From positions 18,735,292 through 18,799,291 of the forward strand of contig OZ316898.1 in NCBI GenBank assembly GCA_973895155.1: a stretch of DNA of 64,000 bases, read 5' to 3'. The position numbers were made by a program, and so were the translations under genes. The DNA is from Marsupella aquatica. Lineage: Eukaryota > Plantae > Marchantiophyta. This document shows, piece after piece, positions 26,923 to 64,000 of this stretch. The notes beneath the pieces were generated by a model that saw nothing but the letters and a program-made list of their open reading frames with translations, was not told the origin of the DNA and ran no database searches. Within the stretch, counting starts at the first letter, position 1; the number at the start of each line of letters is the position of its first letter.

Positions 26923-27052
26923 CAAGGATCATGTGCTCCTGAGGGGAATGTGGGGGGGGAGCGATGGCGCAAGGAGAATTGGCGATGGCGCACCCTTAGG
27001 GTTGCGCCTCGGCTGTTTAAGGTCCTTGAACAAGTGAGGTGAAGTGTCGGGG

Positions 27053-29416
27053 ATGAGTAATGCGACGTCTCAAATGCAGGGATTTAGAGTGCAAGAGAAA
27101 GGGATGGAAAACATGGACAACCGAGCAATGAGTAGAGATCCAAAATTCAAAGACATGACCACGGACACGGAGATGGAGATCCAGCCGGCAGAGTACACTC
27201 TTGGCGATGTCAGGATGACATCGAGGGTACAGGGGTCTCTGGCGGATGAAGCACACAATAGCTTGAAAGGAGACACAGTCAGACAAGCTGAAAAGGGCAG
27301 GACTGGCAATGTCAGTGTAACAGCTATGAGGGTGGTCACTGAGAAGTCAGGAAGGAATAAAGAAACTGAAGAAATTGCATGGGGAAACAAGATTTCACAG
27401 CAGGTGGAGGCCACACAAGTGAATGGAAAGCACAATGGAAAAGCGCAGCTAAAGATGCAAAGGGCGGAACCAAGCAGTGAGAGCAGACCTGGCAATACCT
27501 CGGGGTCAGGGACCAAAAGGGCACAGGTTGAACAGAGCAAGCTGATCATCGAGTCTTCACCCTCTGACAAACTCAAGACATTTATTGAAAACAATGGAAG
27601 CCAACAAACAGTAGATTGCGATAGAATGCTCACACACAATGGGCAGCTGACCAACAAAAGTGTCTTGAATGGTGTTCATGAGGAGTTAGAAGAAAACCAG
27701 GAAAAGACAGGGAATTTTGGTTTCTTGGACCCAGCATGGGACCCAGCGGAAGGGGATGACACGGAGGGATACCTCAATGGGGGGGACAGTGATGAAGAGG
27801 AGGACGAAAACCCCTACGACCACAATCTGGACAAAGAAGCAGGGTTGCATGTGTCTAATGAAGATCTTCGTGCTCAACTCGCACATCTGCCTCAAGTCCC
27901 TAACAAGCCATCGCCAGGAATGAGGTCAGAAACTCTAGTAGTAGACAAGAATATCGTTGCTAGCCGAATTCTGCATTTACAAAATCGTGGGATTATCATG
28001 TACACCGTTGACTTCAATCCTTCAAGAGACTATTTCGAAGAATGGGCACATGAAGTAATAGGCCACAAAATGGGGATCGCAATAGAGCAAATCAAGGTTC
28101 TGTCCAGGTACACTTTTCTGATTGTTGTGTCCACCCCTGAGGAGCAAACCTCTATCCTTCTGGAACCATATCTTAGCATGGGTAGGAAGATGGTGATTGC
28201 TATGCCGTGGACACCTGATTTTGATGCCAAAGCCATGAAATCTACTAGAGCGCCAGTGTGGGTCGATCTGCCGCTGCTTAACCCGGCTTTTGAGTACTAC
28301 GCAAACCAGATGTTAGCAAAAGTGGGGAAAGTACTCTATGCACAGACTGCACATGGTAGAAGTAAATTTTCACATATTCGGGGTTGTGTGCTTTGCAACC
28401 TAAACGCTGATCTTGTAGAATACATAGACATGAATATCCCAGGGGTTGGCCACTACCGGGTGGATGTAATTTATCGCACTCTACCAGATGCTTGCTTTGC
28501 CTGCAAGCAAAGAGGTCACATAGCCAGATACTGTCCTAACAAGCCAAATGTGGGAAAAAGCAATGGGGACCGGGCAAATGGAATTTCCAATCTAGAATCC
28601 ACAGGGAAACAGGGGAAAGCGCCAGTCCAGGTAGACAAAGAAGGCTTCACTATAGTCAAAACTCGGGCCCCACACAAAGGTGATAGGAATAAAGGGGAAA
28701 CATCCACCACACAAGACCGGAGCAGCAATCCCTTTGATGCTTTAGCACAGCTGGATGACATCGAAGATGGAGAAATTGTACCTGAGCAAATCACAAATGT
28801 GGCCCAAAAAGAGGAAGCCAATACTGAAAAGAGCACAAGGGAATCAAAGGAAAACAACACAAAACAAATTGAGCCTGCTGAGAGCAATGGGAACGGTGAG
28901 GAGGAAGCACCAACAGCCATTCACAACACCAACCTAATGAATAGTGCCTCGTTGGAGGCGAACGCTATGGAGCCTACCAAGGCAGGGGAGGGAGCAGAAC
29001 CAATGGAGACTGACAGCAACAAAAACACAAGGAAAGCGGTGCCTTCACCTATAAATGCTTGGGGTACTGGGGCCAGTGTCTCTCCCTCCAAAACAGGGAC
29101 GCCAGCACGACAACAACCCAAGAAAACTAAGAAGAGCAATCAAACAGCAGTGATTCCAACCTTTGTGAGCGACCGAAGAATGGCAGAATTTCTCCCAGAA
29201 GAAATTCCATATCATGTGAGTGACAGAAGTGGTGGGACTGAACCAAGGATGCTCTGCTTTGACCAAGCTCAACCCAACAACAGTAACGGAGGGGGTCGGG
29301 ACCAACGAAAGGGTGGCAAAGAGAAGAACACAAATGAACAGGGGAACAAGACAACAACGGAAGAGAAGGGAACAGGCCCGAACAGAAGTACTGTCACACA
29401 CAAAAAAAACTGCTTT
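27053..29416 (+). CDS. LINE ORF1 protein (DUF4283-like region plus CCHC knuckle); true 3' end unclear because the frame runs into ORF2
   Basis: MVIAMPWTPDFD...PVWVDLPLL, YRTLPDACFACKQRGHIARYC; low-complexity termini. Confidence 0.8.
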
Positions 29417-32400
29417 ATGATGACTGACGAACTTACTGTGAGTCAATGGAATGTTAGGGGACTCAACGACCCGCTGAAGCTGAAGCAGATTGGTGGCTGG
29501 ATCAGAAAAAACAAACAAGAGACGTCGATCTTGTGCCTACAAGAACTGAAAATTAAAAAGGATAGGGCAATTTTCCAACTGGGAGTCTTGGCACCGACCG
29601 CAACGAAGTTGGTGGATTGTGATGAGAACGGGAAAGTGGGCGCAGCGTTGATTATACCAAATAATCACCAAATCTTGGACCATGGGAATAAGGGGGACGG
29701 GACCTTTGTGTGGGCAAGCATTCTGACCACCAAAGGGGAAGTGAGTATTGGTTTGGTTGATACATGATTGAGTGATGGGAACATGATTGAGTTGTGGGAC
29801 GACGCTGTGGGCCCTAACTCGCTACTCCATGGATCAAAAGCTAGGGCATGGAATAAACTCTCAGACCATCTGGATCTTGTTGACAATTACCTTTGCGCTG
29901 GCACCAGGAAGGGCCCGCATTTCTCTAGGCAAGCTAATTATGCTGGTCGGCTTGATCAATCTAGACTGGATAGAAACTACAGTAGCAACAGGAATCAGTG
30001 GTGCGAGTATATAAGATTATGTACTCATGACGGACGGGAAACTCTCTCAGATCACATACCTGTTTCCACAACCTTTGTTCTGCAGCAGAAGATGCAATCT
30101 GGACCCGGGAAGAAATCTACATACTTTAAGATGCATCCGGAGTACGTGGACTCACAAACTCTGGAAGGTGAGATGAAAACAATCTGGCAAGCACAGATGA
30201 GTGATAATCGTGACCCCCGGGTTAATTGGGACCTGGCTTGGGGCGCAGTCAAGAAGCTCCAACAAGCGGAAAAAAGGAGAAGGAACAACAGCAGATCTCA
30301 AGAGCATCCAAGTAACGAATTGCAGGAGGCTAGGATTGCTGCAGGGAACAATCCGTCTAGGGCGAATCCGGATGAGCTTCGGCAGATTGAAGACAAGACC
30401 AGGAAGGTGGCGAAGGATGATGCAATCAAGCTGAGGTGTAGAAGCAGAATTAGATGGCTGAAATTGGGTGAAGCTCCCACCAAATACTTCTTCAACTAAC
30501 TCAAAGCAAAACAAGCCAAGGAAAGCATCAAACAGCTACGCCTGCAGAGCGGGGAAATCTGTGAAGATGAAGAGGTGATTCTCCAAGAAATCTTCTCCTT
30601 TTACAAGCAACTATACTCGAAAGACCCGCAAGTGGATACACATCAAATGCAAAAAGATGAGGTATTGCGGCTTATCTCCAAAAAAGTAAATCAGGAGGAG
30701 AACTCTATGATCACCGAGATTCCAGGAGCGGAAGAAATCGAAAAAATTGTTACTAACATGCCAAAAGAAAGAGCACCTGGAATTGACGGAGTGACCATAG
30801 AAATGCTACAGAAAGGATGGGAATACATGAAGCAGCCTTGCATTGATATGATCCAAGCCTATTGGGAGGATGGCAAGCTATCGTCCAAGGCATCTGCCGG
30901 GGTGATCAAACTCATCCCAAAGAACAACAATACCTTGGACCTGAGTAACTGGAGGCCACTAACCATGCTGACCCTGACCGAAAAGATTGTGGCCAAACTC
31001 CTGGCAAACAGAATTAAGAAGGTGGCAGGAAAATTGGTTGATCCACAACAAACCGGTTTCCTCGAAGGAAGAGACATTCTGGATAACTTATTGACGTTCA
31101 AGATTGGACATGAGTTGGCAACCATCAAGCAGATGCCAACTATTTTCCTCAAACTGGACTTCACTAAAGCTTACGATCGAGTTGCTCACTCTTTTCTATG
31201 GTCGGTGCTGACAGCGATGAACTTTGACCACAAGGTTATCTCGCTCATTAAAGGACTGGTGGAAGGAACACAATCAAAAGTGCATATTAATGGTAGGTTC
31301 ACTGAACCCATTGCTCTGGGTAGGGGTGTCAGACAAGGGTGTCCACTATCTTCACTGCTGTTCACGCTCACTACCCAACCTCTGATGTCCTTAATCAAGG
31401 AAAAGATCAGCGAGGGACAACTGCAAGGGCTGAAACTTCATGACAATAATCATCTGTGCCATCAGCTGTTTGCTGATGACACTGGCCTGTTCCTCACTGC
31501 AACAGAAAGGAATTTTCAGATTGCTCGTGCCACGATCCAGAAGTATGAGGACATCTCGGGAGCCCTGCTAAACCTTCAGAAGTCAAAAATTATTCCTCTC
31601 TATCTAAGTGACGGCAGCTACCCCAGCTGGCTACATAGCATAGGTTGCAGTATTGCCAAACAGGGAGAGATTATTGAATATCTTGGATGCCCGATCGGCT
31701 ACAAGATCCGCCCTTCTCATGCGGCTAGCTTTATGATGGGAAAGCTGAGAAAGCGACTATGCCACTGGACCAACCAAAGTCTTTCTATGACCGGCAGGGC
31801 GGTCCTGCTGAAACATGTTCTGAGGGCTATCCCCACGTATCATCTCATGTCGATGGAGTTGCACAAGACTGGTTACCAGGAGTTTGGAGAAAGTTTGCAG
31901 GCGATTCCTATGGGGCCCGTCGTCCAACAATGGGTACAAAAAAGCTCTAATTGCGTGGAAAGACATCACTACCCATAAGAACGATGGAGGTTTGGGCATT
32001 TTGCCCTTTGCTGAGCAAGCCCAAAACCTGAAAATGAGACATATTAGCAAGCTCATCATGGGAACAAACAGTGAGTGGGTCAAGATGACCGAGGAGATTA
32101 TCAAGAAGGGGCTGCAGTCAGGACCAGGAAAGAAAGAGAGAAGACATTGGTCACCCACGGAAGCGATGCTCCTTACAACTGAGCTCTCCATCAAAGGATC
32201 CCGCACTGTGAAAGGCCTTCTCAAAGGGTGGACTGACAAAACCAGACAACTCAAATTCAATTTTGGATCTGGTAAGTTGCCCTCTACCCTAACCATGGAG
32301 CAGACTGCGCTATTATATGAACGTAACAATCAGATCAGCGACCTGGAAGGGATTGATCTCAGGAGGTTTCTTGCTAACCGGGGAATTAAACGGATATCAG

Positions 32401-33278
32401 ACCTTTTCTCCCCCATGGACGGCTGGTTGGATAGCGACACCCTCTGCAATCCCATACGGAGCAATAGACACTGTGGTTTTGATGCTTTCAACAGGTTCTA
32501 TGACATGCTGAGAAGAAGTAATGGCCTCTTTGAAGGCAATCTGCACCAATGCGAAAGCTGGCAGTGGACTTGGAAAGGGAAGAATCGTGGATGGAGATTT
32601 CCAAATAAGGTCTGGACCCAATGTTCCCCAAAGTCTAACCTTGACGTGACCAAGATTAACAGGAGATGGGGACAGCTGAAGACCAGGGCACAATGGAATC
32701 AACTATGGAAGAGCCTGTGGGGGGGATGGACATTTCCGAAAGTGAGATTTCTGATTTGGAGGTTGCTTAACCATGGTTTTTTCACCAACGGGAGGGGAAG
32801 CCACTGGAAGGTGAGTGATGGGATATGTGTGAGATGCAAGCTCTGTTTTGAGCACACGGAACACCTTTTTTTCAGCTGCAGAATGGTGACCGAACGGTGG
32901 CAAGAGGTGTACAATGCCCTGCAGGAGGCTCCAACTCTTAAGTTTCCTAACCACAATTTGTTTACCGCAATTTCTTATGCGGTCAGGACACACAAACGGA
33001 AACCTGGGCCACTTATCATTCTGATGGAACTATGCAATAGTATATGGAAAGAACGAAACGCAGCAACATACTCACAATTCCTTGGGCGTCTCCCCGGATG
33101 GGTGACCCTGCGACAGTCTGAAATTCACCTCAGGGCCTTGTACGGGGGATGCACCACTCCTAGGAAAAGCAAGCAAGTTAGGAAAGCCTTGGACCAGATT
33201 CAGCTTGTGCTGAAGCCATGGGAGCAGACTGAGAGTCCAGTTGCCTTAGACCTCTCTATTGATGACAGTGAACGATGA
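29417..33278 (+). pseudogene. LINE ORF2 (APE endonuclease, RT, C-terminal zinc-binding domain), disrupted
   Basis: WNVRGLN, LCLQE, SRLDR, LSDH endonuclease; APGIDG, NWRPLTML, KLDFTKAYDRV, GVRQGCPLS, LFADD RT; C..C..EH..HLF..C. Lesions: stop at 29765, TAA at 30497, frameshift at ~31880. Confidence 0.93.
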
Positions 33279-33698
33279 AGGTTTGTCCCTGTTACTCTGG
33301 ATTGATTCAACTCCTTGGGTCAATATTTGGATGAAGAATAGCAACCACATGTACTCTGGTTTTCGCGCTACGTTTGACCTACGCCAACTCGGGATGGAGC
33401 ACAAACATTCGCATGACTTTCCCGACCAACTTGCGTGGTGTCGAAAGGGGATGGGTTCTGCCCAAAGGGGCTGGGTGTTGGCTACCACCTGGTGGCTTCA
33501 CAGGTCCTTTTGGCCTGATTAGGGTTTTTTTTCTTTTTTTCCTCCCGGTTTTCCGGGTTGCCACTGGGGGTGGCTTTTGTCCCCCTGGTGGTGTGTGCTG
33601 GTTCCGGCCCTTCTCCGGTTCGTTGACGGTTTTTTTTTTTTTAAATAAATTAATTAATTAATTAAAGAAAAAATAAAAAAGTAGAATGGTATTTCTGA

Positions 33699-35563
33699 GA
33701 GACTCAACCGAACACTATTGGACCGCTCGAGGAGTATGTTGAGTCAATCATGCTTACCACATGAGTTTTGGGCTGAAGTTGTCAATACTGCAGCTTATTT
33801 GGTAAATTTTTCTCCATCCAATTCTATTGGATTCAAGACACCATATGAAATGAGGTACGGGCGTCCAGCAGATTACTCACATCTGAGGATTTTTGGATGT
33901 GATGCTTATGTGCTTACACCTTCCCAGCTTCGATCCAAGTTGGAGTCCAAGTCGAAGAAGTGCATTTTCCTTGGCTATCAGAAAGGTGTGAAAGGTTATA
34001 GGTTATGGGATCCAGTAACTTGTAAACTAATTGTCAGTAGAGATGTGTCCTTTAATGAATCCAGATCATCAAAGGAGGGGGAGAGTTCTCAGGACTCCCA
34101 TACTGCCAAGGGGAAATCTCCCATCCCGGACCGGGTTGAGGGGGAGATTAATCATGATGCAGTTCATGATAGGAGAGATGGAGAAGCTCCGGGCTTGGAG
34201 CTGGTTCCTGTGATGGAACAAGAGGAGCAGATTGTTGCTGGGGTACCTCAAATTCAAGCAGCAGTAGCAGCAGATCAGCCTGAGTCATCTACTAGAAGAA
34301 CTTTCAATCGTTCTACTAGAGCTCCTACCAGGTATGGTCAATGGGCAGACTCATCTAAGCTAGATGATATTGACATTGCACCTGATGATGATGACATGAC
34401 TTTGATCTTGGAAGAAGGAGAGCCTTCTTCGTACAGTGAGGCTTGTGCTTCAGAGCAGAAGCATGAGTGGAATGCAACAATGTAGAGGGAGTTGCAATCT
34501 TTGAGTGACAATAAGACATGGAAGCTGGTGGAGCTTCCAAGAGGTCAGCAAGTGGTGGACAGCAAGTGGATTTACAAGTTGAAGGATAGTCCTTCAGAGG
34601 GTGGAGACAAGATCTACAAGGCAAGACTTGTTGCCAAGGGGTTCACTCAGGAGAAAGGAGTGGATTACAATGAGGTCTTTTCACCGGTGGCTAAGTATTC
34701 CACAATTCGGATCTTGTGTCAGCTTGTTGTGTTTTTTGGTCTGGTGATGGATCAGATGGATGTTGTTATTGCTTTTCTCTATAGCAACTTGGAAGAGTTG
34801 ATCTTCATGAGACAGCCACTAGGCTTTATGAAGAAGGGCCAAGAGAACTTAGTTTGCAGATTGCTCAAGTCCTTATATGGATTGAAGCAGTCTCCCAGAC
34901 AGTGGAACAAGCGGTTTGATGATTTCATGCTTGCTCAAGGTTTTACAAGGATGGTGTATGATCCTTGTGTGTATACAAAATCAGTCAAGAATGATGTATT
35001 TGGTTTCATCATTCTGGTGATCTATGTGGATGACATGCTGATTGTGGCTAAAGATCAATCTGAGGTTGACAGTCTCAAGGCAAAATTGAGTGTTGAATTC
35101 AGGATCTTGGTAAAGCCAAGAGGATCTTAGGGATGGAGATTTGTAGGAACTCTGATACTGGACAGTTGTGCTTGAGTCAAGGCCAGTATGCAAGGAAAGT
35201 ACTTGCACGATTTAACATGGAAAATTGTAAGCCAGTGAGTATTCCTTTAGCTTCACATTTCAAGTTATCATCGGCTTTCTCTCCTACGGATGCTGTGGAG
35301 AAAGGTCTGATGACTAAGATTCCTTATGAGAAGGTAGTAGGCAGTTTGATGTATTTGATGACTTGTACTAGGCCTGACTTGGCCCTAGCGATGGGCAAGG
35401 TTAGCAGATTCATGTCAAATCTAGGGAAGGTACATTGGGAAGCTGTGAAGTGGATTCTCAGGTATCTGAAGGGAACACAAGACTATGGATTATTATTTGA
35501 TAACAGATCAAATAGAACGTTAGTTGGCTATGTAGATTCTGACTATGGAGACTGTCTGGATAC
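33699..35563 (+). pseudogene. pol: Copia B pol 3' part (integrase C-half, RT), truncated
   Basis: FWAEVVNTAAY, GYRLWD, YKARLVAKG, YVDDML, GYVDSDY; stop at 34483, frameshifting deletion at ~35103. Confidence 0.93.
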
Positions 35564-35599
35564 GTTCCCCTTCTGGATGGTCCCCTGAGAGGGGTTATT

Positions 35600-48466: not shown

Positions 48467-49702
48467 TCAGGGATCGCAGTTCTGTAATCTGTGCCGTAAT
48501 AGCAAAAGGAGGAAGGAAGCTCTATGCCTACTTTGCCAGCTGATTCTGCTGTCACCAGCTTCAGCAAAATTTGACAACTGAGTCAAGATGCCCGCCAACG
48601 CAGCTGCTTCATCGACACAATTCTCCGGATAACTTTGGCAGAGTGTCCAAAGGCAAGAGATTGCCTTTTCAGAGGCAAAGTCATCTCCCAAGCTGATAAT
48701 CCTCCCCAGAACGGGCACAATGAGGGCATGTGCACTGACTGCCTCCCTCCCCTCCGCGCACGAGCAGAGAAGCTCGAGTAGGCTTGTGAGGGCACGTACT
48801 TTACTCCTCTGCTCGGCTTCCGGAAGCCTCTCCACCACAGCAAACACGACCCCTGCTTTCACCGCTCTGATCAGATTTCTCTCCGGGCCCTCGTAGATGA
48901 TTGCTAGCAACGTCTTCAATCCAACTCCCATGGCCCTGGCATAGAGATCCTCCGTGATAAGCTGCACCAATCCCTGGAAAACGCCGGCTGTGGCACCCAC
49001 AGAAGATTTCATTTCCACGTCTTGAGAAGCCAAACTGAAGAGCAACAAAGCGGCGTTCACTCTCCCATCCAAGGTCCCTCTATTGAGCAGCCACGAGACG
49101 GTAGTGAGCTGTTTGGTCCCGATGTGGACATCCTTTCTGATGTGCCTCAAAGGGAGGAGAGTCAGAACACCCAGAGCCTCCTCGCAAGCTTGTAAGTTCT
49201 TGCCCAAGTTCTCCGGAGAGAAGACAAAGTTGGCCAGAATTGGAATCGCTCCAGCCTCGCGGAGCACTCTCCTGTTCTCGTGATTGTCCGACTCCTTCGC
49301 CAGACTTCTCAGCTTCCTAAGATTGTTGTAGCGCACCTCTGCTGGAATCGTCTCCCGGGAGATTTCCTGAAGCATCTTCTCCACCTGTTTCGGCTCCGCT
49401 TGCGGCTTAGCACACCTCTGCACTAGAGGAACCTCCTCCGCATCTCCCGAATAGTAATTGTTGGCGCCACACCAGTGCTCAATCAACCTGTTGAGAGTGT
49501 GGTTCGGATGGACCTCCTGCCTCTCGAGCTCCTGCATAGTGATGGGGCAGGTTTTGTGACCGGACTCAAACCATTGCTCGATGCTCCGACGCTCGTACGT
49601 CTGTCCTGTGCTCAATGTCACTGGGTCCTTCATCAACTCCAAACTGATCGGGCACATAAAAAAACTGGGCACTGGTGCTGTTGCTGCGACTGCAGTCACC
49701 AT
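48467..49702 (-). CDS. Plant U-box/ARM-repeat E3 ubiquitin ligase, paralogue 3, 411 aa, intronless
   Basis: VPSFFMCPISLELMKDPVTLSTGQTYERRSIEQWFESGHKTCPIT U-box; ARM region collinear with paralogues 1 and 2. Confidence 0.95.
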   Translation of the reverse strand: MVTAVAATAPVPSFFMCPISLELMKDPVTLSTGQTYERRSIEQWFESGHKTCPITMQELERQEVHPNHTLNRLIEHWCGANNYYSGDAEEVPLVQRCAKPQAEPKQVEKMLQEISRETIPAEVRYNNLRKLRSLAKESDNHENRRVLREAGAIPILANFVFSPENLGKNLQACEEALGVLTLLPLRHIRKDVHIGTKQLTTVSWLLNRGTLDGRVNAALLLFSLASQDVEMKSSVGATAGVFQGLVQLITEDLYARAMGVGLKTLLAIIYEGPERNLIRAVKAGVVFAVVERLPEAEQRSKVRALTSLLELLCSCAEGREAVSAHALIVPVLGRIISLGDDFASEKAISCLWTLCQSYPENCVDEAAALAGILTQLSNFAEAGDSRISWQSRHRASFLLLLLRHRLQNCDP

Positions 49703-50639
49703 CTCCGATCGTTTGTGTTCCTCGGCCCTGGTGCGATGATTAGTGATCAGAACTTCCTCCCACCGCCGCTTCTCCTTCGTGTCCCTCCGTAATCGTGCAT
49801 ACTCACATCACTGCCATACTCGATCCAATTGCCATATCACCAGCAAACTCACGCCGATTCCTCGTCAGACCAGCCAGCAAACTTCCCCACACTTCCCAAT
49901 CTCTCTTCTCTCACCAAAACGAAATCCTGCTCGGAAATCTGCTGCTCTCCGTGACCACCACGGCAATACTCACTCCGATTCCTCTTCACAGCGGCAGCAA
50001 GCAAACCTTCCCCACACCCTGGAATCTTTCTTTCTCTCACCAAAACGAAGTCCTGCTGCACATTTCCTCCAAGACAGACAGGTTCCCTTTCCAAAGAGTA
50101 CAGAATCTCAAACCGCTTCTTGGTGGCCTAACCGTTTCTTCCCCTTTCCACAAGACCCACCTACTTCCCGACGATCATGCGACGCCTATGAATGAATGAA
50201 AGAACCACAAGCAAAAAAATGCGTTCGATCGCCTCTCCCCGGAACTTATTATTGTAAACCACAGCAGAAGCTGAGTCTTTCTCGAGTCTTCTCGAGTCTT
50301 TCTCGAGTCTTTCTCGGTCAGATCTCGACAACTTCCACAGAATGAGCCCACCTGGATTGGGGGCCACTCCAATCGTCGCAGCCGGCTGCTGCGGCGACGA
50401 CAAGAAGAATGTTTTGGAACGCCACCGAAGCTTACGCCAGCTAACTGTAGGCGATCCTACTCTCAGGCTCTCGGCCCACCATGAATGCCTGATTATTTTG
50501 GATCGGTGATCGGGTGATGCCTTCAGCTCGCGAGCTTTCCACAGCAGGTGCACGCCTGTATGATGCTGTCCACACTGTGTGTCACCTCTAGTCCTGTACC
50601 ACTGTCACATTCTGTCTCTCTGTCCCTTAGTAGGACCAG

Positions 50640-52395
50640 GCAAGTGACTCGAGTCCAGCCCGGACAGAAAACATTTTCCTAGATTTTTCTGGCCGTTAGA
50701 TGTTCCTAGATTTAAGGATGACCGTCCCTGCTCCAGTGACTCGCGTCCATGCCAGCCAGCAAATTTTTTCTAACATTTTCCTGGATTTTTCCTGACAGTT
50801 AGATCTCCCTGGAATTAAGGATTACCGTCCCTAAACTCTGTGACTCGCGTCCAGGCCAGCCAGCGAATTCCTTGGAAAAGGGATTTGGATTGTTTCTGAC
50901 CTTTAGATCTCTGGAGATTTAAGGATGACCGTCCTTTCTGCGGCTGTGCCAGCTTGGAGCAGGGTAATCTGTAATGCTGCTTGAGGTATTATGGCCGTCC
51001 GATTCCCTGAAAGGTCTGAAAGGGGAAAGGGGGTAACTCTTGGAAGTAATTCTGTTCAATTTTTGGGGGTGACATAGCTAAAAAGTGACTCGCGTCCAAG
51101 CCAGCCAGCAAATTCCTTCTATAATTTTCGACTTTCCTGACTGTTGGATCTCCCTAGATTTAAAAATAACCATCCCTGTGACTTGAGTCCGGGCCAGCAG
51201 CCAGTAGAGCCTTCTCTAATTTTCCTGGATTTATTTTTGACCATTAGATCTCCTTGGATTTAAGGCTGACCGTCCCTGTCCGTCCAAGCCAGCTTGCTTG
51301 CTGTACTGCTTGGAGCAGGGTCATCGCTAAGGATGCTGGAGGTATTTAAGGCAATTCCTTGAAAGAGGCTAACTGAGTAATTTTGTTCCAATTTCCAGGC
51401 TGACATTGCAAAAAGGTGACTCACGTCCAAGCCAGCCAGCAAATTCCTTCTAAAATTCTCCTAGATTTTTCCTGGCCGTTGGCTCCCCATAGATTTAAGG
51501 ATAACCATCCTTGCTCCAATGACTCAGGTCCAGGCCAGCTTGTTTGCAGCAAAGCTTGGAGCAGGGTGATCTGTAAGGTTGTTCGAGGTATTTATTGCCG
51601 TCGAATTCCATGAAAGGGAGTAACTCAGTAACTGGGTTATTTCTTCGATTTTTGGGAGTGACAAAGCAATAAAGTGACTCGCGTCCAGTCCAGCCAGCAG
51701 AGCCCAAGGCCAGCCAGCAGAGCCGAGGCCAGCTTGCTTGCTGCCCCGCTTTGGAGCAGGGTAATCTGTGAGGTTGTTTGAGGTATTAATGGCCGTCCGA
51801 TTCCTTGAAAGGGGACAACTGAGTACCGATGGGGGTCACATACCGAAAAACAGGTTTCTTTTTCTGTCTTTTACTGCAAACGCCACTTCGTGTGAAGGGA
51901 ATGATTCTAGGAATCGTGGCAATAATTTGTTTTTCTGACCATTAGATCTCCCTGGATATAGGGATACTCGCTAATCCAATGACTCAACCCTTGGCCAGCC
52001 AGGAGGGCCAGACGCCAGCTTGATTCTGCACAGCTTCGAGCAGGGTAATCTGTAAGGTTGTTTGAAGTATTGTGGCCGTCCCATTCCTTGAAAGTGGGTA
52101 ACTGATTAAATTTGCTCGATTTTGAGGGTGACCTACTGAAAATTGGTCTGTAACTTGGGTTTCTTTTCTATTTTCACAAAGTTATCCCTAAACACCATTT
52201 TAAGTTGCCCACAAAAATAACTTAATTTGTAAGCTGCCCCCAACTTAGCAATGATGTTAATGATGTTTAATTTTGCCCATGATATAGGCCTTTTTAATGT
52301 CCCCTTGTGTGTGAAGGAGAAGGTGCTAGGAATGTTTCTCATCCAAATTTCCTACATGAATTTTTTACCATCAGATCTCCCTGGATTTAATGATA
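50640..52395. repeat. Complex degenerate tandem array of two interleaved modules
   Basis: About nine copies of (g)tgactc.cgtcca.gccagccagc...ttagatctccctggatttaagga..accgtccct and five of ggagcagggtaatctgtaa...gaggtatt...gccgtccgattccttgaaa; related solo copy at ~55240-55310. Confidence 0.85.
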
Positions 52396-52879
52396 ATCCA
52401 TCCAATGTAGCCAGGTAGGAAACTGGTTGATGGAAGACAAAAAAAACAGGTGGCAAATTTTTGCCACTAAAAAAATTAGGAACCTGGTCAGTCAATCTTG
52501 AGCCTGATAACTGAAGTTGTTGGGGAAAGACAGCAAAACATGCGCACTGGGAGGAATCCAGATTGGGAGTTGAAGAACAGCTCCATGGGCTCTCTTGCCA
52601 GGAGCAGGGGTGAGGGGCAACAGTGAGGGTATGACTAGGAGGGTGAGGGTTGTGGCTGGTGCAGGCAAGGAGTCGGGACTGCGTTTGGGCTAACCTGAAT
52701 TTGTTTGTTTGTTTAACTAGTACACTCCCTATAATTTGTTATCTCGGTGTATTTTGTGCGCAGGCAGAGTGTTTATGGGTCTCAGAAATGGGTTGTGGCC
52801 TTTGCTGTTCACACTTTTAGAAGATATCAAGGGATATAACAGTTGTGAGGTTTACAACCTTGACACTCTTTCTTCACCA

Positions 52880-56300: not shown

Positions 56301-58135
56301 GCAATTTCTACCTTTCTATTTTTTCTGTTTTTTAATGAAAGGTGACAGTCTGCCAGGTGCAACATCTACCTTTCCCATTTCGTAACTTGTCTATTTGCCA
56401 TAACTTATCAAACTCTCCCTTCACAATTTTCACTCTGAAGAAGTGTTTTTCTCATGCAATCCTGTCAGTATCACACACGAAATAATGTGGGCCACACTCT
56501 TGGAGACACTAGTACATAATTTTCCTATTTCTATTGGCTGGTGGTTCCTATCCTATGATCTATTGCACTTGAATTTTGTTCCTCTCCTTGTGTACAAATT
56601 GAAGGAATAACCTCCACCGGTTGCACACTGATTGTTTCTAAGGCAAGGTTTCCCTTTTGTTGCAAAAAACTGGAAGGTATAAGTTGGTACTTACAGGAAG
56701 ATTCAATCACCAAGAACAAGACTAATGAAACTGGTGTTGACTCGCATCATGACTCCCAATGTGAGCAAGACACTAAGGGAAACAATTATACATTTGCTTA
56801 AGGAGCTAGTACTGTAATGGATATTTGTTAAGTGGACTAGTTACAGTAGCTGAGTATCTGTTCTGTTTACCTTAACTTCCACGGAAGGCTCCAAAAGATT
56901 CCATCTTAGTCTCTTCAATGGCAACTCTTTTTCTGTGAGCAAAGTACATACTTGGATAATCAACACACTATACTATCCAGGTCCATTCCGACTGATAGTC
57001 TGTTTACAAATTGTCATTTGGGTGGGAAGAAAATCTGGTTGTTGGCTGACGTACTGTTTTTGTAAAGTTTTTTGTCACCCTTCAATCGGCCAAAAACACC
57101 AGCTTCCCCGCCTCCACCCTGCCCTGGCGTCCTTGCCTTGCCATCCTTGCCCAATGTGCCTTGCCTCACCATCCATATCTCAACCTGTATGTGGCCTCTG
57201 TGCCTTGCTCTTGCTATTCGTGCAATGCGCAGGCTTTGGCTCATCACACAAAATAGACTTCCAGATTTTTCAATTTACACTGGCAGGCATAATGCTGCCT
57301 TCATGCGTAAGTGGACTCAAACATAGGGAGATAAGTGTCACCATCCAGCCTTAGACACCAGGTCAAATGTGGAACAAATAAAATAGCTGTTAAACATTCA
57401 TTGGATTGAAAGGTATGTATCCAGGATGCTTTGGGTACGTTTTGCTACTAGGTTGGGATGATACCATGGACTTAACCAGGGTAGACTCCTACTTTCAAGA
57501 ATCACCTTAATAACCCCACCAGTCATGTAGGGTCTTGCTATCTTTGGATTGCCTTTCATGGTTCTCATCAAAAGAGAATACAAATATCAATTATACCCAT
57601 AAGATCGACACGTTCCTGACAAAATTATATTCTCGCAATGTTAGAAGAGAACCTTGGTTTTTCCATCAATTGATACGCACTATCATCGTCGTAGTAAAAG
57701 TACATTTTTCCAAACTGTGTTCCCTATGTTGATGATAAGGAGCAAACATAGTGGATATGGCATTATACTTGTATCCTTTAAAAAAGGTTATCCAGATGTG
57801 GAGGTATCTAACGGTTACTCAAACTCAAAGTCCCAAACAAGGACTCTGGGTGATTGCACCGTTACTCCTTATTTGCATATTTCTCCTGGCCCTTCAGACG
57901 CGCTACCATCCCTGTGCCTCCCCACAGCCATCAGATTTCACTGGCCCATGTGATCAAGGGCTCAAAACAAAGGTTCTTCTGAGACCTACGACTACTAAAA
58001 AATTGCATACAAAATTATGGAATATTCAGCGAGAAAAAAGGGAAAAAAATCTCAATCTTATAGGTAATTCAAAGTCCAGAGATCTTCCTTGTCCATTCAA
58101 ATTCAAATTCTTGTTATCTTGGCCATCTATTTTTT

Positions 58136-58446
58136 GAGAGATTTGCTTGGTGGGACCTCCATGGAAAAGTGCCGACTAGACCAGACCCAGAAAGTCAAAA
58201 ATTGCCCGGTGGGACCCCAAAAGGAGGTCTGAACGGGTTTCGCGTGTAAAACCCGGGCTGCACAGATTTCTGACAGCTTACGTGGACGGACCCGGTAAAA
58301 TTGACGATGGGACACCCCTTCAGCCTTCCAGGTCCGTAGGGAGGGCAGTCTGGCCCAGGACTTCCCATCCAGAAAGTCGGGCCCCATTGGATCCAAAATG
58401 TTAACGTTGCATTGAGAGCTGCAAGACCTTGCTCTACATTGAACCT
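58136..58446 (+). repeat. Left TIR of the MULE
   Basis: Reverse complement of 63148-63481; near-identical over the outer ~170 bp, more diverged inward. Confidence 0.95.
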
Positions 58447-58824
58447 ACGATGCATGCAGACGAAGCTCTGCATTGAACCTGGGAGGGGAGGATCGAGAGC
58501 TGCAAGACGAAGCTGTGTGCTCCAAGGGGACGATCGAGGAGTGGTAAAATCTGCCAGGAGAAGATCACCCAACATTGTCAAGTTTTCAGTAATTTCACCG
58601 AAGATATCAAGACGGGGCTGTGGATGCGGTGATGGCAGCTGAATGCACAGAAGCAAAGTGACAGAACGCCGAAGCATATTGCAGGGAGAGGAGTTGGTGG
58701 TGGAAGCTGCGCTGTGGGGAGAGCGTTGTCACTGCTGTTTGTTGCGCTGCGGGTTTAGGGTACGTGACATTATGCTGCCCCAATCATGCTAGGGAGAAGG
58801 GACTCAAAGGCAAACACCAGGCCC

Positions 58825-58831
58825 TATATAA
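58825..58831 (+). promoter_or_regulatory. Putative TATA box of the MULE transposase
   Basis: cccTATATAAc ~120 bp upstream of the ATG at 58949. Confidence 0.5.
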
Positions 58832-58948
58832 CGCAATGAGTCCATTTTGAGGTGCTTAGCAGCTGCGCGGTGGGGAGAGAAGCATTACCAGAACCATCCT
58901 GTACTGAAATTTTTCATTGCACACTCACATTGTCAACAAAAAAACACG

Positions 58949-61910
58949 ATGGAGGCAGAAGTTCTTGAAGAAAACCTAGCGCCCGATTGGATGAGAGGGG
59001 ATGCTTACCCTATATATATTCCAGATGAGGAGAGACTTCCGTTGCCTCCAAGCAATGAGTTGCAGGGCCGTTTTGCAGCTTGGAATTCTGAGATTGAACA
59101 AGTCCATCCACTATTGAAAGGAAAGTCTGTACATGAGGTGGAAGAGGAGGCTAGTCGTATGAGGCTTGGAGAATCATTCTGTAGTTTTAATGAATTCGAC
59201 CGGTGCTTGGATTCATGGAGTGTGCTGCATGGGAGAGTGAGCCATAGGTTCAAGACAAAATACAAGTTCAGAGTTAGAGTTTGTCGATTTGGAGCTGCCA
59301 TTAGACCTCGTTGGAGAGGAAACAACTCAAATTCTGGTCCGGATTCTTTGTTTGGAACTGCAGGTCTCCATGAAATCCTGCATGAAACTGAATTCAATAA
59401 TTCAATAGGATCCCAGAATTCTGAGATCAAAACTGTAGGTCTCCATGAAGCGGATTTCATTCATTTAGCAGGATCCCAGAATGCAAGTCCAGATTCGCAG
59501 ATTGAAATTGCAGGTCTCCATGAAGTTGATTTCATTAATTTGACAGGATCCCTGGAAGATTGTGGTGACAAAGAAAATGCAGGGGAACTGCCACATAGTC
59601 CATTGCTCATCAATTCCAGAGCACCATTACAAGAAATTCACGCCAATACAATGCACCAGTCCATGGGAACTCATAATAGCCGGAGGGAATTCGTGGCACA
59701 TACTAGGGAGTGGATCCCAGCTAGTTTTCCACAGCGCCTAGCAGGAAGGGACAAGGTTCGAAGGCAATCAAAGACTGGAGCATGTGGACAGCAATGTAGG
59801 TTCTTGCCACCACAGGATAGTGATAACACTGAACTCATGCAGCCCTGCCCATTTCGAGTTAGGTGTCAACGTGAGAAGGATGGAAAGTTTACAATCACAG
59901 TATGTGATTTGCAGCATACTTGTCCAGGATACAAGCATAAGTGGCGAGGCCCTGTCCAAAAATCTGCATGGTTGGGTGAGACGCTGGCACCTCAAGTAGT
60001 GCTAAATGTCCAAGTGCCAGTGAAGGAGATGTTAAATGGACTGAGAATGGACTACAAAAAGAGTTGCAATTACCATCAAATGTGGAGGGCTCGAGACCTT
60101 GTGCGAGACTGGTATCTGGGTGGCCAGCGTCAAAGTTTCCTCCTAATTCCTTCATTGCTGGATAGAATGAAGGATGTTGATCCAAATTGTGTAGTTGATT
60201 GGTCTAGTGTGGAAGGCGGTCGAGTTTTTAATCGAGCATTCATATGCCCTTCTGCGACCCGCACAGCTTTGCAGTACAGTCAACCTGTGGTCTGCATTGA
60301 TGCGTGCCACACCAAGAATCGAAAGTATCCGATTCAACTCTTTGTAGCTACTGCACTTGATGGGAACTCCCAAGTAAACATTCTTTGTTATGCCATTGCC
60401 CCAGTCGAGAATACTGACAACTGGACATGGTTTTTGTCATTGCTAGAGCAGTCAATTCATGGAATAGCAGACCCTACTATTCCAGTCATTTCCGATAGAC
60501 AGAAGGGCCTACAAGTAGCTGTTAAAAATGTGTTCCCAACAAAGGTTCACGGCCATTGTGCCAACCATTTGAGAGCCAACTTGAGGAAACGTCATGGCAA
60601 GGGAGCAGAACGAATCTTTCTGGCTTGTGTGTATGCTAACACCAAGAGATGGTAAGGCTAGTGCATGCTTTGTACAATCCAATTTTATACTTTCAATTTG
60701 AAGAACTTACAGAGATTGGCTAAGCTTATACATTGGCACTGACATGGATTGCAGGTTTGAATTGTTGCTGAACCACTTGTCAACATCGGTTACAGACGGA
60801 GCTAATGCAGTAAAGTACATCAGAGACATGGACGAGAACTTGTATGCCAGGCATGCATTCCCCTTGCCCCGTCTTGGGAAGGTTACCAGCAACCCTGTGG
60901 AGCAAGCCAACTCAGGTTTGCTTCCCATTAGGGAGTTTGCACCTTTTAAAGTGCTAGTAGAGTTGTGGTATTATGTCCAAACTCACTACAACAACAAGGA
61001 AGCAACTGCAATTGCAAGACAAGAGACCTATAGCCAGCAAGCATTGAAGCGACACACAACCAACTTGCAATCCTTTGGACAATGGCAAGTGCTAGATGAT
61101 GGACAGAGTCAAGCAAAAGTTCAGACCACAGACCAACGGGAGGAGTATCTGGTCACATTATCACCAAAGCTCTCTTGCAGTTGTGTGGAGTTACAAGAAA
61201 TGCTCTGGCCATGTGAACATATAATGGCTTGGTATGACAGGGATGGTAAAGACTTCACTAAGCTTTTCCACCACTGCTGGAAGATGTCTTCTTTGCGAAA
61301 GTTGTATGAGCCAAAGGTACCTTGTTTCCTGGTTTGTGATTTGGACCCATCAGAGCACTGTCTTCCTCCTATTCCAGCAGTGAAAAAAGGCAGGCATAGG
61401 GTGGTGCGAATTGAGAGAGGCAACAGACCATCCACAACAGAAGATCTTGCACAGGATGAGTATGTGGATGAAGAGGGGAATTTATTCCGACAATTTCCAA
61501 TTCAAGAAGACAGTCAGAGGATGGCACCCATGCAAACTGCACAAACTACAGCTAGGTCTCACCAAGTTCCCACAGTAAGGCAGACACCAACTGGAACAAC
61601 TAGGATGCCTCAAGTGAATCCTCGTCAGTGCAAATGTTCTATTTGTGGTCAAGTGGGCCACAACAAGAGAACTTGTCATGTGAACAGAGCAACAACAGGA
61701 ACTCCACAAATACAAGTACCAGAAGACAATGGGGAAGCCTTGCATGACCATGCTCGACCGACTTCTCAGACAGTAAACCCATCAGGTCCATTTGCATATT
61801 CAGAAAGCTCAGACAATTCATGTGAGTCTGATAATGTGGATACGTTGAACTCAGATGAAGAACCAAGTCAAGTCAGTGACATGGATCATTTCATTAGCAT
61901 TGCAAAATGA
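58949..61910 (+). CDS. MULE (MURA-like) transposase, two exons 58949-60651 and 60755-61910, ~952 aa
   Basis: The 103-nt GTAAGG..TGCAG intron joins the two ORFs in frame (TKRW|FELL). DDE: CIDACH, ISDRQKGL, TSNPVEQAN; CxxH HCANH; SWIM CSC...PCEH; C-terminal CSICGQVGHNKRTC knuckle. Confidence 0.92.
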
Positions 61911-62102
61911 GATAGCAAGAGAAGCTATAGGAGCATTTGACCCACAAGATCTGTAGGAGAACTCATATTGCTGCCTGAGTTGCTGCAGCAAGTTAATGAT
62001 TGTAACTGCAACCAAATTTTGACATCAAAATGAAATGCTCCAAATTTATTCCAAAATTGGCAAATTCAAATCACATGAGAGTTGCATTTGTGTCCGATGC
62101 CT

Positions 62103-62723
62103 CTACATGTCACCATTTCCACAAAATATCTCACAGCAACACACACATCTATAAACATGATGGCCAACATCATCTAAACCCAAGAATTCTATGTTCTGTC
62201 TGTGAAGTGAGTATGGGATGTATCCAGTGGTAGCCACCTCCCTGTCCATCCAATTCTCTGCTTGTAAGATAGACGTAAAAGACTTGTGTTTGGCCCCACT
62301 ATACCTAGTGACTTGTCTGCCAGCCTCCTCCCAAGTCTTGTATATTCCAGGAGTTCTCCCTATGGCCACTGCATACCATTTTTGCTTTGAGCTCACTCCC
62401 AGGTTACAATTATATGGTCTCTTGATTGAAGAACCTAAAAAAGCGCTAGGTTTACTGCAAGAAGTAGACACTGAATGGGGACTCGGATCTCTGTGGAGAT
62501 TCCCTTTGCCAGCTTCATTGTCCATAGGCAGGGGTCCTTCCACAACAGTCCCTAGCGATTCATGACTTGTAGAATCGAGTACAACAGGGAGTGGACGGAT
62601 ACGCTCCAACATGAGATGAACAAAACCAAAAATCGCACTAAGTACTCCTACAAGTGACCAGAGAAATGCACGAGCTGCAACCCAAAATTGGTTGCCCGAA
62701 TCGTGCTCTGTTGCTTTAGCCAT
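62103..62723 (-). CDS. MULE accessory protein, 206 aa: putative N-terminal TM helix, RNase H1 N-terminal/caulimovirus viroplasmin (Cauli_VI)-like domain, Cys-rich tail
   Basis: aa 115-159 KWYAVAIGRTPGIYKTWEEAGRQVTRYSGAKHKSFTSILQAENWM fits the YAV..GR..GIY.TW.E...QV..Y.GA.HKSF....A signature; hydrophobic aa 13-39. Confidence 0.82.
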   Translation of the reverse strand: MAKATEHDSGNQFWVAARAFLWSLVGVLSAIFGFVHLMLERIRPLPVVLDSTSHESLGTVVEGPLPMDNEAGKGNLHRDPSPHSVSTSCSKPSAFLGSSIKRPYNCNLGVSSKQKWYAVAIGRTPGIYKTWEEAGRQVTRYSGAKHKSFTSILQAENWMDREVATTGYIPYSLHRQNIEFLGLDDVGHHVYRCVCCCEIFCGNGDM

Positions 62724-63147
62724 GAGCGTCCAATGCTCCCAACCAAACCTGCTATGCGTAGCCTTCCGTTTGGTGGAGGAAACCCTTTGAGTAATCAGCT
62801 TGGGACAGCAGAACGTCCGCTATCCTCCCCACAATGCAAAACAGAGCAGCACCGATCCTCTCCCACTGCAATGCACCTCAATCGACCAACTCTTCGCCCC
62901 ACAGCTAGCGCCTACGACCAAATTGTCTCCTAGCACAGCTTCGCAGCGCAGCGCAGCTTGACAGCGCAGCTTCATTGGTCTCCATGCAATCCGCTGCCCT
63001 CCCAACACGCACCTGCTGAATTAATAATAAACTCTACCTAAACCTGTAGCCAACAAAATGGAGTGCTTCGCATTTCAGACGAAGCGATGCTCTCCTCACA
63101 ACAGAGCTTGGTCTCGCAGCACTTTGGCGAACAGCACAACGCAGGGC

Positions 63148-63481
63148 AGGTTCAATGTAGAGCAAGGGCTTGTAGCTCTCAACGCAGCGTCGACATTTTG
63201 GATGCAATGGGGCCTGATTTTCTGGATGGGAAGTCCTGGAGCTCACTGCCCATTAGCATCCCAACGGGCCTTGAAGGCCGAAGGGGGAGTTCTGCTTCCC
63301 CTTTCCCATCGTCAATTTTCCCGGGTCCCATCCACGTAAGCTGTCAGAAATCTGTGCAGCCCGGGTTTTACACGCGAAACCCGTTCCAACTTCCTTTTGG
63401 GGTCCCACCGGGCAATTTTCGACTTTCTGGGTCTGGTCTAGTCGGCAATTTTCCATGGAGGTCCCACCAAGCAAATCTCTC
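63148..63481 (-). repeat. Right TIR of the MULE
   Basis: Ends ...gtcccaccaagcaaatctctc; mirror of 58136-58446. Confidence 0.95.
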
Positions 63482-64000
63482 TCTATTTTTTGCACCTAGC
63501 AGTCTTTTCTGCTCATTTTAGCAAGCCGTGTACAGACCAAAAGAAAGATTTTGATGAAATCTACTGCTGAATTTTTTCTCTTTAAAATTGAATAAATAGT
63601 GTTCAGAAAATAAAATAAACCCAGTTTTCGTTTTGTCCTACTGCTGATTTGTTCTGGGTTGAACCTTGCCAACTAGAATACCATACAGTTGTATGAAAGG
63701 CCTTTTTTATGCGTCATAGTTGTAGTTTAAGAAAATACATGCAACTAAACTGGCTTTCTCTCTAAATATTACTGCCTCCCACACACCTTTATCTCCTTCC
63801 CATCCCTTTATCTTCTGTGCAAGGCCCTAGAACACTAGCAAATTGAACACAAAAAACAGACAAATTTGGAGGCAATGAGTGCCATTAGCCCCCGAGTACA
63901 GCTATATTTTGCACTATATTTTGCACTGCCAAAGAACCAAAAGCGCCAATCTAGGTGACAAGAATGGAAAGGCAAGAGATCCAACTAAGGGGGGAACACA

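What the first reader, a model, noticed from the sequence alone, without database searches (positions are those of the whole stretch)
62103..62723. Mutator element carries a second gene with an RNase H1/CaMV-P6-type duplex-binding domain and a putative membrane anchor
Seen: inside the TIRs, convergent with the transposase and starting ~425 bp from the right TIR, is an intact 206-aa ORF. It has a hydrophobic helix (aa 13-39), a clear RNase H1 N-terminal/Cauli_VI signature (aa 115-159), no RNase H catalytic domain, and a HHVYRCVCCCEIFC tail. Known: this domain binds RNA:DNA hybrids/dsRNA in RNase H1 and occurs in CaMV P6, a silencing suppressor. The convergent two-gene layout mirrors maize mudrA/mudrB, and Arabidopsis VANDAL MULEs encode the anti-silencing protein VANC. 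Inference: this may be a distinct MULE accessory system, for example sequestering dsRNA/siRNA precursors or R-loops to evade silencing. I do not recall such a pairing being described, but could not search for it.
Basis: partly seen in the sequence, partly recalled or inferred. Interest (0 to 1): 0.85.

Follow-up and report, generated by a model that had tools for sequence, protein, structure and literature searches.

The report
Mutator transposon carries hybrid-binding helper gene
A jumping gene in a plant (likely a liverwort) carries, facing its transposase, a second gene kept intact in diverged sister copies whose unnamed protein has the RNA:DNA-hybrid-binding module of RNase H1 but no nuclease, and which likely helps the transposon recognise transcribed DNA.

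Summary
A complete 5,346-bp Mutator element (85%-identical TIRs, 10-bp target duplication, 952-aa DDE transposase) carries a convergent 206-aa ORF with a Cauli_VI/RNase H1 hybrid-binding domain (HBD; E 1e-17) and no nuclease. It is not a one-off capture. In public DNA runs, sister copies about 89-95% identical keep the frame. In the ~89% type, similarity stops at the start and stop codons. Listed variants give omega of about 0.33-0.44 (p 0.002-0.016). The protein belongs to an unnamed family of 14 more 50%-identity representatives sharing a PYNC motif, the HBD and a Cys/His tail (likely zinc-binding), many with the same N-terminal helix. The membrane anchor is unresolved. Whether the distant homologs lie in transposons, and whether the gene is expressed, could not be tested. 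The pairing is not wholly unrecorded: one supplementary table lists Cauli_VI in 1 of 1,846 active plant MULE clusters and in CACTA and Harbinger elements, without comment. Best guess: an R-loop-reading helper of transposition; anti-silencing is a close rival. Interest 0.6.

The parts
58126..58135 (.). Left target-site duplication (10 bp)
   Evidence: Identical to 63482-63491. Contigs in runs X3 and X5 leave the window at 58134 with sequence resembling the right flank, as empty sites in a host repeat would.
58136..58453 (+). Left terminal inverted repeat
   Evidence: 290/341 columns identical to the right TIR.
58949..60651 (+). Mutator transposase exon 1 (split WRKY-like zinc finger by inspection; D451, D516; CxxH)
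   Evidence: Pfam MULE E 2e-14 and Transposase_mut; catalytic residues align with homologs.
60652..60754 (+). Inferred 103-nt GT-AG intron in the transposase
   Evidence: One of two in-frame solutions. It gives a 952-aa protein that aligns without a gap to Calypogeia homologs across the junction. No RNA evidence.
60755..61910 (+). Transposase exon 2 (E617, SWIM finger, CCHC knuckle)
   Evidence: SWIM E 0.002, below the curated cutoff; E617 and SWIM residues align with homologs; knuckle seen in the sequence.
62103..62723 (-). ORF2, 206-aa accessory gene
   Evidence: frame and ends kept in sister copies; synonymous excess; protein family.
62601..62687 (-). ORF2 aa 13-41: conserved hydrophobic or amphipathic helix (W..LS..FxFxHxxLER); membrane role unresolved
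62406..62417 (-). ORF2 aa 103-106: PYNC motif (C106, candidate metal ligand)
   Evidence: Y104, N105 and C106 each kept in 12 of 13 homologs that cover it.
62250..62381 (-). ORF2 aa 115-158: RNase H1 hybrid-binding (Cauli_VI) domain
   Evidence: Pfam E 1e-17; PDB 1qhk, 3bsu; model pLDDT 84-88 superposes on 3bsu, rmsd 0.6 over 45 columns.
62115..62204 (-). ORF2 aa 174-203: Cys/His tail (H174, H188, C193, C195, C196, C201), likely zinc-binding
   Evidence: H174 14/14, H188 14/14, C193 12/14, C195 13/14, C196 11/14, C201 12/13; predicted three beta-strands at moderate confidence; no Pfam match.
63141..63481 (-). Right terminal inverted repeat
63482..63491 (.). Right target-site duplication (10 bp)

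Best explanation
ORF2 is a dedicated second gene of this Mutator family, kept in frame in diverged sister copies, whose protein has a nuclease-free RNase H1 hybrid-binding domain and likely acts as an R-loop reader that would help the transposase engage transcribed chromatin. Shown: the element's anatomy, the domain, retention and synonymous excess in sisters, and a conserved family architecture. Inferred from RNase H1 biochemistry: binding to RNA:DNA hybrids without cutting them. Inferred from conservation: C106 with H174, H188, C193, C195, C196 and C201 binds zinc and braces the HBD. Inferred by analogy with MURB: the N-terminal helix binds a partner (transposase, itself or a nuclear membrane), so the protein would tether transposition to R-loop-rich sites. 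Confidence that it is a functional accessory gene is about 0.88; the figure below is for this particular mechanism.
For: One run (X2) holds at least three sequence types over the ORF's 3' half, with 0, 35 and 37 differences. The 37-difference piece starts at the stop codon (62104) with no gap in 325 nt. Pieces with 25-26 differences end at the ATG (62723) in X2, X3 and X4. One contig swaps 113 nt of linker for 98 nt, in frame. All 12 indels shown (of 15) lie outside the ORF. Of the 33 shown variants inside the ORF, 15 are synonymous and 18 are not, against an expected synonymous share of 0.22-0.27: omega about 0.33-0.44, p 0.002-0.016. One X5 contig links the transposase tail to ORF2 and differs at 33/476 sites outside versus 5/275 in the ORF2-side window, p 0.0016. 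Fourteen further representatives, median 38% pairwise identity over aa 101-204, share the module. None of the 58 RNase H-bearing proteins among the 150 hits has the tail or the helix. A lone Drosophila HBD binds hybrid tightly and not dsRNA or dsDNA (PMC7657459, passages). Human Y29 is kept as Y117. Cauli_VI recurs in MULE, CACTA and Harbinger accessory proteins and in 3 of 217 Harbinger proteins labelled transposase (PMC12973397 Table S6), which fits work alongside the transposase. MURB binds MURA and is needed for heritable insertions (same paper, section 2.3).
Against: No binding, localisation or targeting data exist for this protein. Human K60 is S148 here, and the K59 position is E in 4 of 14 homologs, so hybrid affinity may be lower or lost in some branches. 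The yeast HBD prefers dsRNA. No basic NLS-like cluster was found by a simple pattern, and the N-terminal helix is hydrophobic enough to be a membrane anchor. The variant test used only the 33 in-ORF rows among 40 shown of 121, pooled over sisters; no single sub-domain is significant alone. Some copies are broken: P0001 leaves the frame near codon 194, and one X5 contig has 2 gap letters in the ORF. The genomic context of the 14 distant homologs is unknown, so linkage to a transposase is shown only for sisters at about 90-95% identity.
Confidence: 0.4

Rival explanations
1. Anti-silencing shield in the nucleus: the protein binds hybrids or duplex RNA made by the element itself (convergent transcripts, TIR fold-back, scaffold RNA of RNA-directed methylation) and keeps them from the silencing machinery, working like VANC but through RNA rather than a DNA motif.
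For: The genes converge with 192 bp between stops, and the TIRs could pair strongly (first 150 nt, -302 kcal/mol as RNA), so triggers are plausible. The ORFs are CpG-depleted (observed/expected 0.33-0.35, like flank and retroelements), consistent with a methylating host. VANDAL MULEs encode an anti-silencing accessory protein (PMC5735166 abstract). The yeast HBD prefers dsRNA.
Against: ORF2 has no domain or sequence likeness to VANC or PMD in Pfam. An HBD is not sequence-specific, whereas VANC is. The TIR-pairing energy follows trivially from TIR identity and needs read-through that was not observed.
Confidence: 0.27
2. Membrane-anchored, cytoplasm-facing dsRNA sponge or P6-like suppressor of post-transcriptional silencing.
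For: Hydropathy 2.05 over aa 21-39, reached by 1.8% of shuffles. It stays at 1.97 when five listed substitutions of one sister contig are scored. Three of 9 homologs with the helix score 2.1-2.4. There is no obvious NLS.
Against: Four of those 9 homologs score 1.1-1.4. The helix ends in a conserved HxxxER, and P0124, P0110 and P0145 carry E and K/R inside it, which suits an amphipathic helix. Isolated fly HBD does not bind dsRNA.
Confidence: 0.13
3. The HBD is a repurposed scaffold: the zinc-braced module binds a protein (transposase or a host chromatin factor) and nucleic-acid binding is secondary or lost.
For: The best-conserved residues of the family are His and Cys outside the HBD. The basic positions equivalent to human K59 and K60 vary, including E.
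Against: Y117 (13/14), W131 (11/14), F149 (14/14) and the full HBD profile are kept in all 14 members of the alignment scanned.
Confidence: 0.12
4. Neutral cargo: a Pack-MULE-like fragment of a host RNase H1 gene carried by chance, or a host gene moved recently into the element.
For: MULEs often capture host fragments (PMC6446971, passages). Broken copies exist. The context of distant homologs is unknown.
Against: Similarity ends at the start and stop codons, indels avoid the ORF, and synonymous changes are in excess. Four of the five nearest HBDs among the 150 hits are family members, and the 11 nearest lack a detected RNase H domain. The helix and tail occur in no RNase H1 among the hits.
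Confidence: 0.08

Closest known systems
Maize MuDR (mudrA + mudrB)
   Same: Long TIRs, DDE/SWIM transposase and a second small gene; MURB binds MURA and is needed for insertion (PMC12973397 section 2.3). The convergent layout of mudrA/mudrB is recalled, not checked.
   Different: ORF2 has an RNase H1 HBD and a Cys/His module; no Pfam family other than Cauli_VI matched. Homology to MURB was not tested directly. The transposase's nearest named relatives are liverwort proteins.
Arabidopsis VANDAL (VANA/VANB/VANC)
   Same: A MULE with accessory genes, one of them anti-silencing (PMC5735166 abstract).
   Different: VANC is a sequence-specific DNA binder acting on tandem motifs; ORF2 has a non-sequence-specific duplex-binding fold and no PMD-like match.
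Hybrid-binding domain of RNase H1 (PF01693; yeast 1qhk, human 3bsu); also in caulimovirus P6
   Same: Full-length profile match, same predicted beta-beta-alpha-beta-alpha fold, Y29 equivalent kept.
   Different: No catalytic domain; K60 is Ser; the domain is flanked by PYNC and a Cys/His tail and preceded by a hydrophobic helix, none of which is found in the RNase H1 hits.
Cauli_VI accessory proteins of active plant TIR transposons (PMC12973397 Table S6)
   Same: Cauli_VI in an accessory protein of 1 of 1,846 MULE, 3 of 775 CACTA and 1 of 217 Harbinger clusters.
   Different: Bare table rows with no species, architecture or discussion (main text has 0 hits for 'cauli' or 'RNase H'). That survey lists three liverwort genomes and only a hAT cluster for them, so its MULE row is probably another lineage.
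Pleurotus helitron capE; stand-alone HBD genes in fungal KDZ transposons
   Same: An HBD gene carried by a DNA transposon (PMC4289320 passages; unchecked scan notes).
   Different: Other superfamilies and another kingdom; capE was reported in a single copy and read as viral cargo; whether these share the Cys/His module was not tested.

Membership tests
Mutator/MULE superfamily, autonomous | Long terminal inverted repeats | tested here: met
   318/341-bp arms, 85% identical.
Mutator/MULE superfamily, autonomous | 8-11 bp target-site duplication | tested here: met
   10 bp, identical on both sides; range from PMC6446971.
Mutator/MULE superfamily, autonomous | DDE transposase with MULE domain and zinc finger | tested here: met
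   PF10551, PF00872, SWIM; D451, D516, E617 aligned with homologs; needs one inferred intron.
Mutator/MULE superfamily, autonomous | Current transposition activity | not testable with these tools
   Intact frames and several sequence types per run suggest past spread; TIRs at 85% do not date it.
RNase H1 hybrid-binding domain (PF01693) | Profile match above cutoff and beta-beta-alpha-beta-alpha fold | tested here: met
   64.5 bits against a cutoff of 21; model and Foldseek to 3bsu, probability 1.0, E 2.6e-3. The model was built with HBD homologs in its alignment.
RNase H1 hybrid-binding domain (PF01693) | Hybrid-contact residues (human Y29, K60; main chain of R52, A55) | tested here: inconclusive
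   Y117 kept, K60 is S148, R140 and G143 at the main-chain positions. Ser at this place also occurs in complete RNase H1 proteins.
RNase H1 hybrid-binding domain (PF01693) | Binds RNA:DNA hybrid | not testable with these tools
   Needs a binding assay.
RNase H1 enzyme | C-terminal RNase H catalytic domain | tested here: not met
   Absent in ORF2 and in all 15 tail-bearing hits.
Pack-MULE (neutral host-fragment capture) | Non-autonomous element with fragments lacking coding constraint | tested here: not met
   Transposase intact; ORF2 whole and constrained.
Pack-MULE (neutral host-fragment capture) | Near-identical parent gene in the host genome | not testable with these tools
   No genome is held for this window.
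VANC-type anti-silencing protein | VANC/PMD-related domain | tested here: not met
   Only Cauli_VI matches in Pfam for ORF2; 13 homologs add only weak DUF hits.
VANC-type anti-silencing protein | Induces hypomethylation of cognate elements | not testable with these tools
   Needs transgenics.
MURB-type accessory protein | Second gene inside the TIRs, retained in sister elements | tested here: met
MURB-type accessory protein | Required for insertion | not testable with these tools
   Needs a transposition assay.
Single-pass membrane protein | Conserved uncharged 19-residue hydrophobic segment | tested here: inconclusive
   2.05 here; 1.1-2.4 in 9 homologs; charged residues inside the helix in some.
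Known zinc-finger or zinc-ribbon family | Match of the Cys/His tail to a described family or fold | tested here: inconclusive
   No Pfam or PDB sequence match beyond the HBD; the fold searches were dominated by the HBD.

The most novel reading that the evidence does not exclude
ORF2 defines an undescribed, old family of transposon accessory proteins in liverworts: an RNase H1 hybrid-binding domain nested in a new zinc module behind a tethering helix. It would be one case of a recurring strategy in which unrelated DNA transposons (MULE, CACTA, Harbinger, fungal KDZ and Helitron) recruit a nuclease-free R-loop reader to aim insertion at transcribed chromatin or to shield their own hybrids. That would make R-loops a general interface between cut-and-paste transposons and their hosts.
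Probability: 0.3. Interest if true: 0.82.

Novelty: new variant of a known kind. Interest (0 to 1): 0.6.

Why it matters
How Mutator elements choose targets near genes, and what their second genes do, is a long-open question; MURB has no recognisable domain to test. Here the second gene has a domain with known biochemistry, so the question becomes directly testable: hybrid binding, insertion sites against R-loop maps, and loss of function. The same domain turns up in other DNA-transposon superfamilies, which hints at convergent recruitment. The family is unnamed in the sources checked, and its Cys/His module matches no Pfam family. A small natural R-loop reader without nuclease could also be a useful probe.

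Tried and rejected
No host genome is held, so copy number, full-length sisters and a host parent gene could not be examined. No RNA holder was listed; this says nothing about expression. Word-index protein searches found only P0001 and wrongly suggested an orphan; the full HMMER search corrected this. The one metagenome scan returned 13 loci: 8 are complete RNase H1 frames, 1 is a longer HBD-led protein, 4 are partial or interrupted frames, and none has a related transposase nearby. The viral scan with ORF2 gave 3 HBD-only hits. Transposase scans of prokaryotic genomes and viral contigs found nothing. The family alignment had no stretch conserved enough to scan with. PHROGs: no match. Single-sequence folding failed (pLDDT 34). 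Fold searches found only the HBD; the tail was barely tested and is not shown to be a new fold. Complex prediction of transposase aa 1-400 with ORF2 gave no answer (score 0.00, no alignments used); it is evidence neither way. The protein atlas was unavailable. An IS1-like zinc-ribbon reading of the tail (recalled pattern) was considered; no Pfam match supports it. A spliced 3' extension of ORF2 was considered: only weak donor sites, and homologs end at the same place. Contig depth was not used as copy number. Run X6 (small share, mostly 151-nt contigs) was laid but not relied on. Literature: searches for Cauli_VI + transposase (0 papers; the underscore is dropped by the index), viroplasmin + transposase (4 papers), and searches found no paper describing a MULE HBD accessory gene. 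PMC5751038, PMC6431247, PMC13547354, PMC6446971 and bioRxiv 10.64898/2026.08.24.746577 were searched for terms only. Their supplements, subscription journals and Repbase were not seen and could hold such a description.

Full report
1. The element. The ORF lies in a complete Mutator element at 58136-63481. The TIRs (58136-58453, 63141-63481) are 290/341 identical and are flanked by an identical 10-bp duplication. Contigs of runs X3 and X5 follow the left flank to 58134 and then continue with sequence resembling the right flank, as expected for empty sites in a host repeat. The transposase is split by an inferred 103-nt intron. Of two in-frame solutions, the 952-aa one aligns without a gap to homologs and keeps D451, D516, E617 and the SWIM finger. 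The word-index search gave 7 relatives among 1,103 candidates; the two named ones are from the liverwort Calypogeia fissa. The window also holds plant U-box/ARM genes. A liverwort host is therefore inferred, not shown; no genome is held.

2. The ORF. It is 206 aa, intact, convergent, with 192 bp between the stops. PF01693 covers aa 115-158 at E 1e-17. It matches yeast 1qhk and human 3bsu. A model of aa 109-206 built with 13 HBD homologs has the HBD fold at pLDDT 84-88 and superposes on 3bsu. There is no catalytic domain. Of the human contact residues named in PMC7657459 (one section read), Y29 is kept (Y117) and K60 is not (S148); Ser occurs there in complete RNase H1 proteins too.

3. Retention and selection. 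Six public runs from 4 studies and 3 organism labels hold the element or part of it, 4 of them with half the words or more; one may be the source sample. X3 carries the window's own flank unchanged, so labels A and B are not proof of two species; X5 is clearly diverged. In X2 alone, three sequence types cover the ORF's 3' half (0, 35 and 37 differences), and a fourth contig matches only 62105-62155, the Cys-rich codons. The 37-difference type begins at the stop codon and has no gap in 325 nt. Pieces with 25-26 differences end exactly at the ATG in three runs. One contig replaces 113 nt of linker by 98 nt, keeping the frame. All 12 indels shown, of 15, fall in the spacer 62067-62099; they account for all 14 gap letters of the 35-difference contig. 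Four loose ends next to aligned pieces, translated by hand, stay open in frame and recover motifs seen in the window protein. Of 121 differing places, 40 were shown and 33 lie in the ORF: 15 synonymous, 18 not, omega about 0.33-0.44, p 0.002-0.016 depending on transition weighting. The transposase gave 14 synonymous and 9 not among 23 shown places. One X5 contig spanning the transposase tail and ORF2 differs at 33/476 places outside and 5/275 in the ORF2-side window, p 0.0016; a second differs at 29/208 upstream and 5/102 at the ORF start, p 0.019. Against: the rows are a shown subset pooled over copies; no sub-domain is significant alone; P0001 leaves the frame near codon 194; one X5 contig has 2 gap letters inside the ORF. 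Decayed copies exist beside intact ones. Linkage to the transposase is seen directly for two sister contigs (X5, 95% identical; one X1 contig with joints across 61696-62099), not for the 89% type.

4. A protein family. The full HMMER search gave 2,236 hits at E 0.001 and listed 150. Fifteen of the 150 carry the C-terminal tail: P0001 and 14 others; 58 carry an RNase H domain; none carries both, and none of the 58 has the N-terminal helix. The 14 are 27-71% identical pairwise over aa 101-204, median 38%. They keep PYNC106 just before the HBD (Cys in 12 of 13) and, after it, H174 (14/14), H188 (14/14), C193 (12/14), C195 (13/14), C196 (11/14), C201 (12/13) and N203 (12/13). Seven conserved Cys/His residues on both sides of the HBD suggest a zinc site that braces it; this is inference. 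The tail has no Pfam or PDB sequence match and is predicted as three beta-strands at pLDDT 59-80. Four further hits (P0105, P0110, P0124, P0145) have the helix and HBD but no tail. All 20 representatives looked up are unnamed, 19 from Logan and 1 from ENA. Their genomic context could not be fetched, so their link to transposons is unproven. The HBD's basic positions vary: the K59 position is K in 9, R in 1 and E in 4 of 14.

5. The N-terminal helix. Hydropathy is 2.05 (1.8% of shuffles). The helix is conserved with a W..LS..FxFxHxxLER pattern, which is more specific than a plain anchor needs. Nine homologs score 1.1-2.4, and three tail-less relatives have charged residues inside it. A membrane-spanning role is possible (about one in three by my judgement); an amphipathic interaction helix fits at least as well.

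6. Mechanism. Shown: a constrained accessory gene with a nuclease-free HBD. From literature: an isolated fly HBD binds hybrids tightly and not dsRNA or dsDNA; the human HBD binds dsRNA weakly; the yeast HBD prefers dsRNA (PMC7657459, passages). MURB binds the N-terminus of MURA and is needed for insertion (PMC12973397, section 2.3 and passages). I commit to an R-loop reader that works with the transposase in target engagement (0.40). One pointer is that Cauli_VI also appears inside 3 of 217 Harbinger proteins labelled transposase, though these may be fused gene models. A nuclear anti-silencing shield is the close rival (0.27); a membrane-bound dsRNA sponge (0.13), a protein-binding scaffold (0.12) and neutral cargo (0.08) follow. 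That Mutator elements favour gene 5' ends rich in R-loops is partly recalled; PMC12973397 says only that maize Mutator inserts near actively transcribed loci.

7. What is known. MULEs with second ORFs are known (PMC6446971, passages; PMC5735166, abstract). Table S6 of PMC12973397 lists Cauli_VI in accessory proteins of 1 of 1,846 MULE, 3 of 775 CACTA and 1 of 217 Harbinger clusters, with no mention in the text. Its tables list three liverwort genomes and one liverwort cluster, a hAT; I searched the file as held and did not read it whole. A Pleurotus helitron carries a PF01693 gene (PMC4289320, passages). Two unchecked notes of this scan report stand-alone HBD genes in mushroom transposons. Ten searches of the held library (listings only unless cited) found no description of this family or of an HBD-based MULE accessory system.

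8. Verdict. A real, intact element with a real accessory gene from an unnamed protein family: a new variant of a known kind. The pairing has been tallied once before but, as far as I could find, not described. Function is untested. Interest 0.6.

Noticed in passing
window 261-1580, 14193-15509, 48467-49807 (all - strand): Three intron-free plant U-box/ARM (PUB) E3 ligase paralogs spread along the window, likely a tandem family pushed apart by transposons.
   Followed up: partly
window 18292-22226 (-), 24942-26476 (+), 33685-35588 (+), 27038-33278 (+): Two closely related Copia-type LTR retroelements in opposite orientation; the second appears split by a LINE (ORF1 with DUF4283, reverse transcriptase). 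All have in-frame stops.
   Followed up: partly
window 50640-52400: An array of imperfect 100-350 bp repeats (7-8 copies of a 25-49 nt core) upstream of the third U-box gene, without a long ORF; unexplained, possibly the subterminal region of another DNA transposon or Helitron.
   Followed up: no
window 59330-59557: Three imperfect 63-75 bp in-frame repeats inside the variable insert that splits the transposase's N-terminal zinc finger; sister contigs show joints across this region.
   Followed up: partly
window 58414 / 63184: One X3 contig joins the two TIRs on opposite strands, which could be a short non-autonomous derivative or a mapping effect of the TIR similarity.
   Followed up: no
window 58962-58982 and 62443-62463: A 21-nt, 90% complementary match between the 5' end of the transposase ORF and the linker of ORF2; probably chance.
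   Followed up: no
proteins P0105, P0110, P0124, P0145: A sub-group with the same N-terminal helix and HBD but no Cys/His tail; possibly the accessory gene of a sister transposon lineage.
   Followed up: partly
protein P0015; locus L009 1003-1508: P0015 is a 578-aa acidic protein with eight tandem HBDs and, by inspection, no nuclease; L009 is a likely eukaryotic contig with two HBD matches.
   Followed up: no
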